A DNA stretch of 64,000 nucleotides, from assembly GCA_037134895.1 (NCBI GenBank), contig JBAXLI010000009.1, positions 3,855 to 67,854 of the forward strand. The letters are read 5' to 3'. Shown here piece by piece: positions 41,543 to 44,757 of the stretch. Both the position numbers and the translations under genes were made by a program. The stretch is from Bacteroidota bacterium (GTDB lineage: Bacteria > Bacteroidota > Bacteroidia > Bacteroidales > FEN-979). The notes under the pieces are model-generated. The model worked only from the letters and a program-made list of their open reading frames with translations, was not told where the DNA came from and did not search any database. The stretch's first letter is position 1; each line of letters starts with the position of its first letter.

Positions 41543-42823
41543 ATGAAACGAGAGGAATTCGTACTATATCGCACCTTCCCGTCGGATGCCATCAGTGATG
41601 GATGGAAAGCCGGGATCGATATTTCACATGTTGCCTATGGAAGCAGGAGCTGGGCAGTTTTAATGGCCGAACAAACGGGCTTCACAAGTCAGCGGTATTT
41701 TCAGAGGGATGATTTCCCATCCAAAAGTATTGATGATGGCTGGAAAGAGAATTATTACATTACCAATATTACCTGGGGGGACTCGACCTGGGTCCTGATC
41801 ATGTCGGAGGGATGCGGATTTACCGATCAGCAATGGAGATGCGGTAGCAAATTCCCTGCCAGGGACGTCGAGAAAGCTATCAAGGCGGGGTTTCATATTT
41901 CTTTCGTGACCTATGGACAGGAACGCTGGGTTGTGGTGCTTTCGAGAACTGAAAGGACATATGAGCAGAAATGGGAAATGTCGAAGGACTTTCCTGAGGA
42001 GGCCATTGAAGAATACTGGAACCAGGGATATATCATAACTTCCCTGGCCTATGGCGACCAGAAGTGGCTGCTGGTTGTCTCCAAAGGAAGCGAGGTGTTA
42101 TACCAGAGCTGGTCTTTCCGCCGCAGCTTCCCGGAGTCGGAAATTTCAGAGAAACGTAGTGAAGGGTACTGGGTTTCAAGTCTTACATATGGAAACGGTC
42201 TCTGGGTTGTTGTGATGTCGATGACTGAAGAGGAATACCAGAAACGGACAACTCAAAAGCCACAGGAAACAAAGAAAAAACCTAGGATTCCCAAACCCCG
42301 GGAACAAACCCCGGTGCAATCTTCCGACACTTCAGCCCCTGATGAAGTGAAATTTGAACTGGCGATGGGTGAGTTGCGAAAGCTCACTGGCCTGGCTAAG
42401 GTCAAGGATGAAGTTGATGCCCTGATGAAATACATCAAAGTCGAAAAGTTAAGGAAAACAAGGGGACTGGAGAATGATTTCGGGCAGGAAGCCATTGATA
42501 CCTTGCTTAAACGAATGGAAGACGAAAGGGATAAGCTTATTGTTATCCTTGCAGGGTACACGACCCTGATGAAAAAGGTTGTCGACTCAAACCCGGGACT
42601 TCCTTCAAGGTCTACCAGGTCTTTCATCTTCAGCAATTATTCGGTTAATGAGATGACAGAAACTTCCTGCTACAACTGCAAAAAAAAAGGGGATTTTATT
42701 TTAAAAGATTCTATTGAACAGATTTCTGATTATTTTTCTAACTTTGAAGGGAGGACCTCAAGCGATTTCGGAAACGCAAGATTTGTAAGAAATCTTTTCG
42801 ATAAGACGGTGCAGGAACTTTAA
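41543..42823 (+). CDS. Operon gene C: five tandem ~46-aa repeats fused to a CbbX/SpoVK-type AAA+ remnant lacking Walker A/B; possibly degenerate
   Basis: The repeat pattern is FP..xI...W..GY.I[TS]...YG...W.VVMS......Q.W, five copies across residues ~12-242. The C-terminal part has [30 protein letters not shown], joined directly to [29 protein letters not shown]...NPGLPSR...[11 protein letters not shown]. This is the AAA+ family pattern with the P-loop core missing. See the finding for the in-frame TAA. Confidence 0.6.
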   Translation: [426 protein letters not shown]

Positions 42824-42921
42824 ACCAGGCTTGCTTATATTGACAATCCTGCAACAGAAGAACTCAGTACGATCACAAAGGAGGATTTTTTTCAGGCAAT
42901 AAAAAAAGAAAAAACAACATC

Positions 42922-44757
42922 ATGAAAAGGATTCTGATTATTGCTGCATTACTGATAACGGGGTTCTTGTATGCACAGGATGCCGTTAAAAGCGGATCTA
43001 TGTTAAAAGGAAACGAGTCAGCGGGGAAATACGACCGTGTTTCACTCACCATGCTGATGCTTTCTATGCCGGGTGAGCGTTATACCGATGACATTAAAAC
43101 CGTGTTCAGGGATGTTCACATTCCCGACAAATTCAATGACAACCTTGTAACAACCCGGTTCCTGAACCCATCCCTTCAGAGCAACAAGTCTGGCAGTCCG
43201 ACTTATAATTTCACGAATCCCGGCAATGGAGTAATAGGTGGCCCGGAACTGAAAAATATAATGGTAAACGGCAAGGTTTCCAACCAGATCATTGCAAAAT
43301 GGTTCGGAAGGAAGCCTGATGGTACTTTTTCGGAAGACGTGCTCAAGGAAAGAGGCTTGTACAATGCTGTTGACGGGGATGTGCTCATTGCCAATGCCAG
43401 TGTGGCTAAACAAAGGCTGAGTGACCAGGGAGAGCGGATGATAGGCAGGAGCTTTATTATTGTAATGGATTATAACTGGGTAAGAAGTGTGGCAGAGATC
43501 CGTTCGGGAACCGACGATAAGAGCAAGGCGATGGCTTCGCAATATGCCGATAAAAACGGTTATGTTGGCCAGGGCCAGGCCTATATTTTCCAGCTCGTCT
43601 GGAATGACTCGGTACAGTCTGTTTTCTATAATGATTTCTGGGCAGGCCCTAATGACAAAACCTCGGTCATCCAGGCCCGTGAGAAGGCCTTTAACGAAGC
43701 CCGCTTCGAGGTACGGTATCTTTTAAGTGTGTCGGTGGATGGCGATGGTACCCAGCCCAACCCCGATACATTTCTCGGAAAGCTTACCAGGCAGAAGTCG
43801 AGGGACGAATTATTTCAGAAGCTGGTTTATACAAGCATCGACAATGCCGTATTCAAGATTGAAAGGGTTGTCGAAGATTTTAAAGTCAAAGTCCCTGTTG
43901 CTGCCATCCATCCAATACGGGCAAAAATTGGCCGTAAGGAAGGGCTGAGGGTCGACCACCGCTATTACGTATTTGAAGCGGTGCAGACCGACCAGGGTGT
44001 AAAAATGAAACGAAGGGGTGTGATCAGGGCTACAAGTAAGATTGCCGACAACCGCCAGGTTGCAACCGGAACCACATCCGCAGAAATGATGTCAAAATTT
44101 TACCAGGTTGCCGGGCGCAGGCTTGACGTGGGCATGAGGATGCAGCAACGAAATGATATAGGCATCGGGATCAACCTTGGAGTAATTGCACAATCATCAG
44201 ACTATTCGAACCTGTTATTCACAGGTGGGCTGGAATATAATCTCTCCCCGCTGCTCAGCCATATTATCAGGCGGATACCCCACTCAATCAAGCTGGGGGT
44301 GGATTTCAGTTACGGCACACCCAAATATCCTATCGACTACCAGACCCTTCTCCCGGGGTTTGTTCCACCTTCAGATGCTGCGACGGAATTTAAGCTTTCA
44401 ACAATGCGCTTCAGTTTCAGTCTTTCAAAGGATTTTCACTTTTTCAGGGTGATGCGTTTTACTCCTTTTGTAGGATATGCAATGGAAACTGCGAAATTCA
44501 ACTCCGATCTGGTTTATTATTACGGGTATGACAAATCGAAAGACTTTACAAAGATTAAGAAAGACAGTACCTATGCTAAGATCAATTTCTTTACCGTAGG
44601 GGCAAAACTCGGGATCAACATCACAAGTTTTATGCAGCTGATGCTTTATTTCAATGCCCTCGGGCCAAATTACAAGGGATATGACGCGGGACTCTATCAG
44701 CCAGCTATTAAAAACAACTGGATGGAGTTCGGGGCCTTCCTGCATTTTGAATTTTAA
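42922..44757 (+). CDS. Operon gene D: putative outer-membrane protein (soluble N-terminal region + C-terminal beta-barrel)
   Basis: 611 aa with signal peptide MKRILIIAALLITGFLYAQ. The last ~200 aa show alternating hydrophobic beta-strand periodicity (IKLGVDFSYG, MRFSFSLS, FFTVGAKLGINI). The terminus is ...FGAFLHFEF, ending in an aromatic residue as in OMPs. Confidence 0.55.
   Translation: MKRILIIAALLITGFLYAQDAVKSGSMLKGNESAGKYDRVSLTMLMLSMPGERYTDDIKTVFRDVHIPDKFNDNLVTTRFLNPSLQSNKSGSPTYNFTNPGNGVIGGPELKNIMVNGKVSNQIIAKWFGRKPDGTFSEDVLKERGLYNAVDGDVLIANASVAKQRLSDQGERMIGRSFIIVMDYNWVRSVAEIRSGTDDKSKAMASQYADKNGYVGQGQAYIFQLVWNDSVQSVFYNDFWAGPNDKTSVIQAREKAFNEARFEVRYLLSVSVDGDGTQPNPDTFLGKLTRQKSRDELFQKLVYTSIDNAVFKIERVVEDFKVKVPVAAIHPIRAKIGRKEGLRVDHRYYVFEAVQTDQGVKMKRRGVIRATSKIADNRQVATGTTSAEMMSKFYQVAGRRLDVGMRMQQRNDIGIGINLGVIAQSSDYSNLLFTGGLEYNLSPLLSHIIRRIPHSIKLGVDFSYGTPKYPIDYQTLLPGFVPPSDAATEFKLSTMRFSFSLSKDFHFFRVMRFTPFVGYAMETAKFNSDLVYYYGYDKSKDFTKIKKDSTYAKINFFTVGAKLGINITSFMQLMLYFNALGPNYKGYDAGLYQPAIKNNWMEFGAFLHFEF

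What the first reader, a model, noticed from the sequence alone, without database searches (positions are those of the whole stretch)
41543..42925. Five-repeat protein fused to a CbbX/SpoVK-type AAA+ module that has lost its P-loop core and carries an in-frame TAA 33 codons before the ancestral, translationally coupled stop
There are four observations. (1) Residues ~12-242 are five tandem ~46-aa repeats with the pattern FP..xI...W..GY.I[TS]...YG...W.VVMS......Q.W. I cannot assign them to a family, and they may form a 5-bladed fold. (2) The C-terminal part matches CbbX/SpoVK/EccA-type AAA+ proteins at both ends. However, LRKTRGLE runs straight into [29 protein letters not shown]. The ~95 aa that normally carry Walker A (GxPGTGKT) and Walker B are therefore missing through a clean in-frame deletion. 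(3) The ORF stops at TAA 42821-42823, inside the conserved GNARxVRNxF...QAxRL block. Reading through in the same frame gives TRLAYIDNPATEELSTITKEDFFQAIKKEKTTS. That still looks like the family C-terminus and ends in TGA at 42923-42925, overlapping the ATG of gene D (ATGA). This is the signature of an ancestral coupled junction. (4) A 9-A homopolymer lies at 42680-42688. Together these indicate one of three things: a recently inactivated ATPase subunit, a repurposed scaffold, or programmed stop read-through.
Basis: partly seen in the sequence, partly recalled or inferred. Interest (0 to 1): 0.65.

Follow-up and report, generated by a model that had tools for sequence, protein, structure and literature searches.

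The report
Decayed remnant of DUF7477–double-AAA+ gene
This gene in a freshwater Bacteroidota species is the recently broken remnant of a larger ATPase gene that close relatives keep intact: it lost both ATP-binding cores through two in-frame deletions and then gained a stop codon, which is ordinary gene decay.

Summary

- **Intact form.** Five congeners and a sister lineage (92% identical) encode an 821-824 aa protein. It has a five-repeat DUF7477 domain, a linker, and two CbbX/SpoVK/EccA-clade AAA+ modules.
- **Lesions in the window copy.** An 837-nt deletion removes AAA1 and joins the two modules at a shared Y-I-K. A 255-nt deletion removes Walker A and Walker B of AAA2. Ser codon TCG has become TAG/TAA at 42821.
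- **Arithmetic.** 824 = 460 + 364 residues exactly.
- **Ancestral stop.** In the sister, the intact gene ends in the same ...KKEKTTS tail, and its stop overlaps gene D's ATG by 4 nt.
- **Not an artefact.** Contigs from seven of the 12+ lake-metagenome runs holding the stretch span both junctions, and 17 other contigs encode the identical protein. Both stop alleles circulate. The locus is transcribed at a low level.
- **Fold.** The repeat domain is not a beta-propeller. It is the five-EHEE-repeat barrel known only from the N-domain of fungal polyglycine hydrolase (PDB 7TPU).

Rate tests cannot tell whether the surviving DUF7477 part is still used. The most likely reading is a young, species-wide pseudogene. 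Read-through is unsupported.

The parts
41543..42823 (+). Truncated ORF 'C', 426 aa plus stop: DUF7477 domain, linker, and a P-loop-less AAA+ remnant.
   Evidence: ORF listed. The identical protein is encoded on 17 other public contigs. Contigs from seven metagenome runs cover it without gaps.
41576..42268 (+). Five tandem 46-residue repeats (residues 12-242). This is the DUF7477 domain, a barrel of five strand-helix-strand-strand (EHEE) units.
   Evidence: Exact 46-residue period. Pfam PF24289 at E 1.3e-33. AF2 model with pLDDT 95.1 and pTM 0.89 shows five EHEE units. The only significant PDB fold match is 7tpu_A, with TMq 0.67 and probability 1.0. That fold is described in PMC9912923.
42269..42346 (+). 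K/P/Q-rich linker (residues 243-268).
   Evidence: Low-complexity and variable among orthologues. pLDDT is below 50 in the full-length model.
42347..42430 (+). N-terminal helix region inherited from AAA+ module 1 (residues 269-296).
   Evidence: Codons 283-296 match the congeners' AAA1 at 31-34 of 42 nt, against 22-27 of 42 for AAA2.
42431..42439 (+). Junction of deletion A (837 nt, 279 aa lost). The cross-over lies in the Y-I-K codons (TAYATYAAR) shared by the N-helices of AAA1 and AAA2.
   Evidence: Codons 297-309 match AAA2 at 31-33 of 39 nt, against 20-22 of 39 for AAA1.
42467..42472 (+). Junction of deletion B (255 nt, 85 aa lost), between codon 309 (Leu, CTG) and codon 310 (Glu, GAG). 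It removes QTTPLVLH...GAPGTGKT...ILFVDEAY...TRGG, which holds Walker A and Walker B of AAA2.
   Evidence: An imperfect direct repeat, ACAAGGGG / ACCAGGGG, lies just upstream of both breakpoints in the intact genes. The joint 7426->7685 is seen when the species' contigs are laid on the intact orthologue.
42470..42820 (+). Remnant of AAA2 (residues 310-426): sensor-1 strand, Arg-finger segment (SRF changed to SRS), and the first half of the lid with GNAR.
   Evidence: NCBIfam SpoVK profile positions 119-236 of 261 only, at 97 bits against a cut-off of 423. AAA_lid_6 profile positions 7-35 of 60. Residues 238-363 have pLDDT below 50 and no beta strands are predicted. G000-only changes at positions that are the same in nearly all of the other 18 homologues: F357S, L371M, I374T, E420D.
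42680..42688 (+). A9 run, reading K-K-K in frame. It is not involved in the inactivation.
   Evidence: No indels appear in any contig. The sister protein also has CKKKG.
42821..42823 (+). Premature stop, TAA in the window and TAG in about half of the other assemblies. It derives from Ser TCG.
   Evidence: All five congeners have TCG. A 90%-identical minor contig in X6 also has TCG. The sister protein has Ser at this position. TAG is the major allele in runs X2 and X6 and in 3 of 6 assemblies.
42824..42925 (+). Former last 33 codons plus the ancestral TGA stop, now untranslated spacer upstream of gene D.
   Evidence: 28 of 33 residues are identical to the C-terminus of the intact sister protein P0313. 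It matches AAA_lid_6 profile positions 39-60. In the sister contig the stop of C overlaps the start of D by 4 nt.
42922..44757 (+). Gene D (611 aa, outer-membrane-protein-like). It is the first gene of the accessory D-H cassette, and its ATG overlaps the ancestral stop of C.
   Evidence: Within the genus, D is present only in G000 and G006.
38819..41539 (+). Genes A (340 aa, membrane protein) and B (559 aa: LamG, TM helices, C-terminal zinc ribbon). They are the conserved partners of C and are intact here.
   Evidence: B co-occurs with C, and lies next to it, in the same 8 of 41 related genomes.

Best explanation
The ORF is a young gene remnant that is fixed across the species. Its ancestor was a cytoplasmic protein of about 824 aa. 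That protein had an N-terminal DUF7477 domain (a barrel of five EHEE repeats, presumably the client- or partner-binding module), a flexible linker, and two CbbX/SpoVK/EccA-clade AAA+ modules that would form the ATP-driven remodelling motor. It is encoded directly after two conserved membrane-protein genes, A and B.

Three lesions accumulated in this species' lineage.
1. Recombination between the paralogous N-helices of the two AAA+ modules, at a shared Y-I-K, deleted 837 nt: all of AAA1 and the inter-module linker.
2. A 255-nt deletion removed strands beta1-beta3 of AAA2, which carry Walker A and Walker B.
3. TCG (Ser) became TAG and then TAA, 33 codons before the original stop. That original stop overlapped the ATG of gene D as ATGA.

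Shown: the product cannot bind or hydrolyse ATP, the lesions are real, and they are present across the species' population. Inferred: the remaining 426-aa product (DUF7477 plus an unfoldable tail) no longer has a selected function, so this is a pseudogene early in its decay. It is still transcribed because it sits inside an active gene cluster. Gene D now has to start translation on its own rather than by coupling.
For: **Intact orthologues**
- Open frames of 821-825 aa with DUF7477 plus two AAA and two AAA_lid_6 domains occur in five congeners.
- A sister lineage has C at 92%, B at 91% and D at 94% identity.
- The sister's length is 824 = 460 + 364 residues, and it ends in the same KKEKTTS tail. 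Its stop overlaps D by 4 nt.

**Deletion mapping**
- The deletions are 279 aa and 85 aa.
- The DNA shows a chimeric junction, AAA1-like up to codon 296 and AAA2-like from codon 297.

**Catalytic motifs**
- No Walker A or B motif is present.
- SpoVK, EccA and CbbX models score 75-97 bits against cut-offs of 423-467.

**Not an artefact**
- 12 or more lake and freshwater runs from 8 studies hold the stretch.
- Contigs from X1, X2, X3, X4, X6, X8 and X9 span both junctions without gaps.
- 17 contigs from ENA, NCBI and JGI encode the identical protein.
- TAG and TAA alleles split 3:3 among six assemblies.

**Signs of relaxed constraint in the remnant**
- Polarised against the sister, with congeners as outgroup, G000-derived versus sister-derived replacements are 8:4 in the remnant and 4:1 after the stop. 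In DUF7477 they are 10:7.
- The remnant changes hit core positions that are the same in nearly all of 18 homologues: F357S, I374T, L371M, E420D.
- Both within-species amino-acid polymorphisms (R416K, D420E) lie in the remnant.

**Fold and precedent**
- AF2 gives pLDDT below 50 and no beta core for residues 238-363.
- The orthologue in another genus (G022) is also degraded, by similar repeat-mediated deletions plus a TGA. The gene therefore appears to be dispensable and prone to recombination.
Against: - The 5' 1278 nt are still open, and both deletions are in frame. Deletion A is in frame by construction; deletion B had a 1-in-3 chance.
- The DUF7477 part shows no significant acceleration (10 versus 7 replacements, all conservative). 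Its omega against congeners is 0.059, the same as among congeners.
- Stand-alone DUF7477 proteins of about 300 aa exist elsewhere.
- Partners A and B remain intact, and the locus is transcribed.
- None of the rate contrasts reaches significance: 12:5 gives p = 0.14, and singletons give p = 0.38.

Taken together, these points mean that retained function of the DUF7477 half cannot be excluded.
Confidence: 0.7

Rival explanations
1. Repurposed scaffold. After losing the motor, the gene is kept as a stand-alone DUF7477 protein. It would still bind the original partner or client (for example the cytoplasmic zinc-ribbon tail of B) and act as an ATP-independent adaptor, decoy or regulator. The AAA+ tail is irrelevant to this role.
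For: - The ORF is open and unchanged in 17 contigs.
- Both deletions are in frame.
- The DUF7477 domain folds with pLDDT 95. Its G000-specific changes are few and conservative (10 versus 7). Its one within-species SNP is synonymous.
- DUF7477 occurs as a module with many partners and in roughly 300-aa proteins with no other Pfam domain.
- A and B are intact, and RNA contigs cover the DUF7477 part.
Against: - The decay is so recent that an open frame and low divergence are expected under neutrality too. Only about 8% amino-acid divergence separates G000 from the intact sister.
- No statistic separates DUF7477 from the remnant (Fisher p = 0.72).
- In G022 decay has also hit the DUF7477 domain itself, through a repeat-unit deletion plus a TGA.
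- No other lineage has a short DUF7477-plus-AAA-stump form.
Confidence: 0.25
2. Programmed stop-codon read-through restores the full C-terminus and the translational coupling to gene D.
For: The 33 codons after the stop are still open and 28 of 33 are identical to the intact sister's tail. An RNA contig runs across the stop.
Against: - The stop is TAA or TAG, followed by A. Both alleles are efficient stops, and no recoding signal was looked for or found.
- A read-through product would still lack both P-loops, so nothing functional would be restored.
- The open frame after the stop is explained by the youth of the mutation.
- The post-stop segment shows the strongest G000-biased change, 4:1.
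Confidence: 0.03
3. Assembly artefact or single-strain lesion. On this reading the deletions or the stop come from mis-assembly across the paralogous AAA+ modules or from one aberrant clone.
For: Tandem paralogous modules can collapse in short-read assemblies.
Against: - Independent Logan contigs from seven runs in several studies span both junctions with 0-2 differences.
- Six ENA, NCBI and JGI assemblies carry the same ORF.
- The two modules are only about 55-65% identical at the DNA level at the junctions.
- The intact congener G008 assembles correctly from the same runs.
Confidence: 0.01

Closest known systems
CbbX, the red-type Rubisco activase (PDB 3ZUH, 3SYL), and the SpoVK/EccA/CbbX higher-order AAA+ clade (PMC11513918)
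   Same: - The AAA+ modules of the intact orthologue match CbbX at E 2e-54 and EccA1 (9LUR) at E 5e-51.
- The window copy keeps the family's sensor-1 and Arg-finger segment and the GNAR lid motif.
- As in this clade, a variable N-terminal domain precedes a conserved motor and probably recruits a dedicated client.
   Different: - The intact form has two tandem modules and a DUF7477 N-domain, and it sits next to two membrane-protein genes. There is no Rubisco, T7SS or sporulation context.
- The window copy lacks Walker A and Walker B entirely, scores 75-97 bits against cut-offs of 423-467, and is not a member in any functional sense.
N-domain of fungal polyglycine hydrolase Fvan-cmp (PDB 7TPU; PMC9912923)
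   Same: - Both have five quasi-identical units of about 44-46 residues, arranged strand-helix-strand-strand, that close into a barrel-like domain.
- It is the only significant PDB fold match (E 5e-4, probability 1.0, TMq 0.67).
- Its function is unknown there too, and a protein-binding role is suspected.
   Different: - Sequence identity is 14%.
- The fungal protein is secreted and fused to a beta-lactamase-like protease. The repeats here are strongly conserved in sequence, cytoplasmic, and ancestrally fused to AAA+ modules.
Pfam DUF7477 (PF24289) family
   Same: The score is 116.8 bits against a cut-off of 27. The family has 889 representatives at 50% clustering.
   Different: Other members carry caspase, FGE-sulfatase, TPR plus tandem AAA+, or no partner. 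No other member found has a P-loop-less AAA+ stump.
Ordinary bacterial unitary pseudogenes formed by repeat-mediated deletion plus a nonsense mutation
   Same: Intact orthologues exist in sister taxa. The catalytic motifs are lost. A premature stop is present. The locus is still transcribed within its cluster. There is early, weak evidence of relaxed constraint.
   Different: The defect is fixed across a widespread lake population. Both deletions kept the frame, so an intact domain is still encoded.

Membership tests
Pfam DUF7477 (PF24289) | The whole-protein score exceeds the gathering threshold of 27 bits. | tested here: met
   116.8 bits, E 1.3e-33, two stretches.
Polyglycine-hydrolase N-domain fold (7TPU) | Five structural repeats arranged EHEE that form a closed barrel-like domain. 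| tested here: met
   The AF2 model (pLDDT 95.1) has five E-H-E-E units. Foldseek finds 7tpu_A at probability 1.0 and TMq 0.67. The fold is defined in PMC9912923. The structure is predicted, not solved.
AAA+ ATPase (PF00004) | Walker A P-loop, GxxGxGK[ST]. | tested here: not met
   No motif is present in the ORF or in the read-through part. There is no PF00004 hit. The motif lies inside deletion B.
AAA+ ATPase (PF00004) | Walker B, hhhhDE. | tested here: not met
   Absent. ILFVDEAY lies inside deletion B.
AAA+ ATPase (PF00004) | Sensor-1 and Arg-finger segment, and a complete lid. | tested here: inconclusive
   LIVILAGY and SR are kept, but the conserved SRF now reads SRS (F357S). The lid is cut at profile position 35 of 60 by the stop.
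CbbX / SpoVK / EccA equivalogs (TIGR02880, TIGR02881, TIGR03922) | Score above the curated whole-protein cut-off. | tested here: not met
   75.2, 97.3 and 89.8 bits against cut-offs of 459, 423 and 467. Only profile positions 119-236 of 261 align. The intact orthologue belongs to the clade by similarity, but its equivalog status was not tested.
Pseudogene (unitary, lineage-specific) | Intact orthologues in the closest relatives, and disabling lesions here that are real rather than artefacts. | tested here: met
   The sister protein is 824 aa and intact, and the congeners are 821-824 aa. The lesions are confirmed in independent assemblies and runs.
Pseudogene (unitary, lineage-specific) | Relaxed selection over the whole remaining ORF. 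| tested here: inconclusive
   Derived changes for the remnant plus the post-stop segment are 12:5 (p = 0.14). For DUF7477 they are 10:7 (p = 0.63). dS against the congeners is saturated.
Programmed translational read-through | A leaky stop context or recoding signal, and a detectable read-through product. | not testable with these tools
   The stop is TAA or TAG followed by A. No proteomic data are available.
Known anti-phage defence systems (PADLOC) | A specific match of A, B, C or D to a defence-system model. | tested here: not met
   The intact orthologue gives only generic AAA+ matches (IetA, TRIP13; E 1e-14 to 1e-15). A, B and D give none.

The most novel reading that the evidence does not exclude
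The truncated product is retained as an ATP-independent, stand-alone DUF7477 protein that still docks onto the conserved membrane partners A and B. That would make it a natural separation-of-function allele, showing that the five-repeat barrel has a role of its own apart from the AAA+ motor.
Probability: 0.2. Interest if true: 0.45.

Novelty: new member of a known kind. Interest (0 to 1): 0.25.

Why it matters
By itself this is routine gene decay, and it should not be annotated or counted as an AAA+ ATPase. It has three modest uses.

1. It is a cleanly dated natural knockout of the motor half of an uncharacterised, patchily distributed three-gene module: a membrane protein, a LamG-TM-zinc-ribbon protein, and DUF7477 with two AAA+ modules. 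An intact sister and an intact congener live in the same lakes, which allows a comparison of what the module is needed for.
2. It shows, together with an independent case in another genus, that internally repetitive genes of this type decay through in-frame, repeat-mediated deletions. Such lesions leave long open frames that gene callers accept as genes.
3. It links the widespread bacterial DUF7477 domain to the only solved example of its fold (7TPU). It also places the domain as the N-terminal, probably client-recruiting module of a CbbX/EccA/SpoVK-clade chaperone.

Tried and rejected
- **Tachylectin-2-like five-bladed propeller.** This idea for the 46-aa repeats is rejected. The model has a helix in every repeat, and the only PDB fold match is 7TPU. 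The PDB sequence search gave nothing.
- **dN/dS against congeners.** dS is saturated at about 2, and omega is the same as among congeners. The test is uninformative about recent decay.
- **Singleton counts at otherwise invariant sites.** A first script had an off-by-one error in the alignment. The corrected count gives 6 of 104 against 7 of 68, p = 0.38. Several apparent G000-unique changes (C401F, E403G, S408D, L423V) later proved to be shared with the intact sister, so they are not decay.
- **MAFFT DNA alignment A2.** It misplaced the remnant onto AAA1. The breakpoints were taken instead from the protein alignment and from codon-wise identity counts.
- **Searching with the 426-aa protein.** This cannot find 821-aa relatives because of the tool's length window. 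I used genome searches and a search with the intact orthologue instead.
- **DNA of the sister contig.** It is not available, so no codon-level branch test could be run. The short sister contig L026 gives only 72 codons of C.
- **PADLOC.** Only generic AAA+ hits.
- **Literature search for 'DUF7477'.** No papers found.
- **A9 slippage.** No indel occurs in any contig.

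
Full report
**What is in the sequence**

The ORF at 41543-42823 (+) encodes 426 aa and ends in TAA. Reading on in frame gives 33 more codons. These end in TGA at 42923-42925, which overlaps the ATG of the next gene, D, at 42922. Residues 12-242 are five repeats with an exact 46-residue period, each starting with FP. They match Pfam DUF7477 at E 1.3e-33.

The C-terminal third matches only the back half of CbbX/SpoVK/EccA models. It aligns to SpoVK profile positions 119-236 of 261, at 97 bits against a cut-off of 423. It also matches the first half of AAA_lid_6, and the 33 post-stop residues match the second half. No Walker A or Walker B motif exists anywhere in the frame. 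The A9 run at 42680-42688 simply reads K-K-K in frame.

**What the intact gene looks like**

A search of 41 related genomes found the gene in five congeners as an open frame of 821-825 aa. Residues 1-310 of the query match its start at 77-80% identity. Residues 301-426 match its very end at 71-74% identity. These orthologues consist of DUF7477, a linker, and two AAA-plus-AAA_lid_6 modules. The modules are closest to CbbX (3ZUH/3SYL, E 2e-54) and EccA1 (9LUR).

The protein alignment and codon-wise DNA comparison show that the window copy carries two separate in-frame deletions.
- **Deletion A (279 aa, 837 nt).** It runs from ...DALMK|YIK of AAA1 to ...KLAN|YIK of AAA2. Upstream of the joint the sequence is AAA1-like (31-34 of 42 nt, against 22-27 of 42 for AAA2). 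Downstream it is AAA2-like (31-33 of 39 nt, against 20-22 of 39). This is a cross-over between the paralogous N-helices at a shared TAYATYAAR.
- **Deletion B (85 aa, 255 nt).** It removes QTTPLVLH...GAPGTGKT...ILFVDEAYMLTRGG from AAA2, the P-loop through Walker B. An imperfect ACAAGGGG / ACCAGGGG repeat sits next to both breakpoints.

The total loss is 364 aa, not about 95 aa. The codon at 42821 is TCG (Ser) in all five congeners.

**The sister lineage settles the history**

Gene D's protein cluster contains a variant 94% identical to the window's copy. Its 19.8-kb ENA contig has the same gene order as the window: B, C, D, E, F, G, H, START. There, C is 824 aa with both AAA modules. It occupies 1604-4078, and D starts at 4075, giving a 4-nt overlap.

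That sister protein (P0313) is 92% identical to the window's copy over the shared parts. It ends in ...EDFLQAIKKEKTTS, the same tail as the window's read-through peptide. Its length is 824 = 460 + 364 residues exactly. A second assembly has an open C-terminal fragment of 347 aa running to the same overlap. A minor contig in one lake run, 90% identical to the window, also carries TCG at 42821-42823 and is collinear into D.

So the ancestor of this species had the full-length gene, with its stop coupled to D by ATGA. All three lesions arose after the split from a relative only about 8% diverged in protein sequence.

**It is real and species-wide**

Twelve or more freshwater and lake metagenome runs from eight studies hold the stretch. 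Contigs from seven of them span both junctions and the stop with 0-2 differences and no gaps. Seventeen contigs in ENA, NCBI and JGI assemblies encode the identical 426-aa protein.

The stop is dimorphic. TAG is the major allele in two runs and in 3 of 6 assemblies, and TAA is found in the rest. The parsimonious path is TCG to TAG to TAA. When the same runs are laid on the intact gene of congener G008, G008's own contigs appear at 100% identity, and the short species' contigs show the 255-nt joint. Intact and truncated species therefore co-occur, and the assemblers resolve both.

Metatranscriptome contigs from three runs across two samples cover pieces of A, C, D, F, G and H at low depth. One piece crosses junction B and one crosses the stop in its TAG form. 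The locus is therefore transcribed, although DNA carry-over in those libraries cannot be excluded.

**Is anything still under selection?**

Against the congeners, dS is saturated (about 2). Omega is the same as among the congeners themselves: DUF7477 0.059 against 0.053, and the remnant 0.076 against 0.084. That shows only that the decay is recent.

I then polarised differences from the sister, using the congeners as outgroup.

| Segment | G000-derived | Sister-derived |
|---|---|---|
| DUF7477 | 10 (all conservative) | 7 |
| AAA2 remnant | 8 | 4 |
| Post-stop | 4 | 1 |
| Remnant + post-stop | 12 | 5 (p = 0.14) |

The remnant changes include A354P, F357S (in the Arg-finger motif SRF), I374T, F375S and Y384D. 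F357, L371, I374 and E420 are the same in nearly all of the other 18 homologues aligned. Both within-species amino-acid polymorphisms (R416K, D420E) lie in the remnant, and the one SNP in DUF7477 is synonymous.

The direction fits relaxed constraint on the stump and little change in DUF7477, but the counts are too small to decide. A full-length AF2 model keeps the DUF7477 barrel confident. It gives pLDDT below 50 and no beta strands for residues 238-363, as expected for an alpha/beta core that has lost three of its five strands.

**The repeat domain**

With a 61-sequence alignment, AF2 gives pLDDT 95.1 and pTM 0.89, with five strand-helix-strand-strand units. Foldseek against the PDB finds one significant match, 7tpu_A, at probability 1.0 and TMq 0.67. 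Its N-domain was described as a novel fold of five quasi-identical EHEE repeats of 44 residues forming a barrel-like structure. Its function is unknown, and it occurs in all kingdoms (PMC9912923). The domain is therefore not a propeller.

DUF7477 has 889 representatives at E of 1e-3 or better in a library clustered at 50% identity. It is fused to tandem CbbX-type AAA+ modules (with or without TPR), to caspase and to FGE-sulfatase domains. It also occurs in proteins of about 300 aa with no other domain. In the CbbX/SpoVK/EccA clade, variable N-terminal domains are thought to recruit a dedicated client to a conserved motor (PMC11513918). By analogy, and this is inference, DUF7477 is the recruiting module.

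**Genomic context**

B (LamG, TM helices, zinc ribbon) co-occurs with C, and lies next to it, in exactly the same 8 of 41 relatives. A precedes them. Five of the eleven congeners lack the module entirely, so it is accessory.

The D-H cassette (42922-48568) is a separate, variable block. Within the genus, D occurs only in G000 and G006. In G006 two other genes separate it from C. In G008 and G007 the START-domain gene, which lies at 48597 in the window, directly follows C. The ATGA coupling is therefore ancestral to the G000-plus-sister lineage, not to the genus.

In another genus (G022) the C orthologue is independently degraded. It has a 46-aa repeat-unit deletion with TGG changed to TGA at the joint. 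It has an AAA1/AAA2 chimera formed at GQEAIDTL. Its lid is cut at NLFE and fused in frame to the next gene's signal peptide. B is intact there. That argues that C is dispensable in some settings and structurally prone to repeat-mediated deletion.

**Verdict**

Shown:
- The ORF descends from an intact 824-aa DUF7477-AAA-AAA gene.
- It has lost both nucleotide-binding cores and half a lid.
- The lesions are genuine and fixed in a widespread lake species.
- The original stop was translationally coupled to gene D.

Inferred, at about 0.7: the remnant has no selected function and is a young pseudogene. It is still transcribed and still open only because too little time has passed. The alternative that the DUF7477 half is kept as a stand-alone binder stands at about 0.25, programmed read-through at about 0.03, and artefact at about 0.01.

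This is a well-documented but ordinary case of gene decay. Its main practical lesson is that the ORF should not be annotated as an AAA+ ATPase.

Noticed in passing
L018 (G022:C3) 4291-6515, minus strand: The C orthologue in another genus is independently degraded. It has a 46-aa DUF7477 repeat-unit deletion with TGG changed to TGA at the joint, a single chimeric AAA module (AAA1/AAA2 cross-over at GQEAIDTL), and a lid cut at NLFE and fused in frame to the next gene's signal peptide. Neighbour B is intact.
   Followed up: partly
window 42922-48568: The five-gene D-H cassette (611-aa OMP-like protein, 168 aa, DUF6175 of 315 aa, 324 aa, 437 aa) is an accessory block inserted between C and the START-domain gene (48597-49271). 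D occurs in only 2 of 11 congeners. G008 and G007 have C followed directly by START. In G006 two other genes (539 and 202 aa) come first. The 'eight-gene operon' is therefore composite.
   Followed up: partly
window 38819-42823 and relatives: A (340-aa membrane protein), B (LamG-TM-zinc ribbon) and C (DUF7477-AAA-AAA) form a conserved accessory triad. B and C are present, and adjacent, in the same 8 of 41 related genomes, and A precedes them in the loci examined. PADLOC has no specific match. The function is unknown.
   Followed up: partly
proteins P0133, P0144, P0169, P0138, P0175, P0181: Elsewhere DUF7477 is fused to caspase (Peptidase_C14), to FGE-sulfatase, and to TPR plus tandem CbbX-type AAA+ modules. 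These architectures are reminiscent of bacterial signalling or conflict systems.
   Followed up: no
G000:C90:10136-12976, minus strand: The same genome has a 1400-aa open frame with four tandem CbbX-like AAA+ modules (38-43% identical to the remnant) and no DUF7477 match. G022 has an equivalent 1404-aa frame.
   Followed up: no
window 42922-44757 (gene D), around residues 480-545: Gene D shows length polymorphism within the species cluster (611, 614 and 617 aa; 94-99% identity). The indels lie in a segment near residues 481-487 and 535-545.
   Followed up: no
L013 (G008:C9) 5667-8132: The congener G008, which has the intact 821-aa gene, is present at 100% identity and comparable depth in the same lake metagenome runs (X2, X6, X8, X9) as the truncated species.
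   Followed up: partly
window 42821-42823: The stop codon is the most polymorphic site of the gene. TAA and TAG each occur in 3 of 6 assemblies, while the rest of the 1383 nt differs at only one other position (41959, synonymous).
   Followed up: yes
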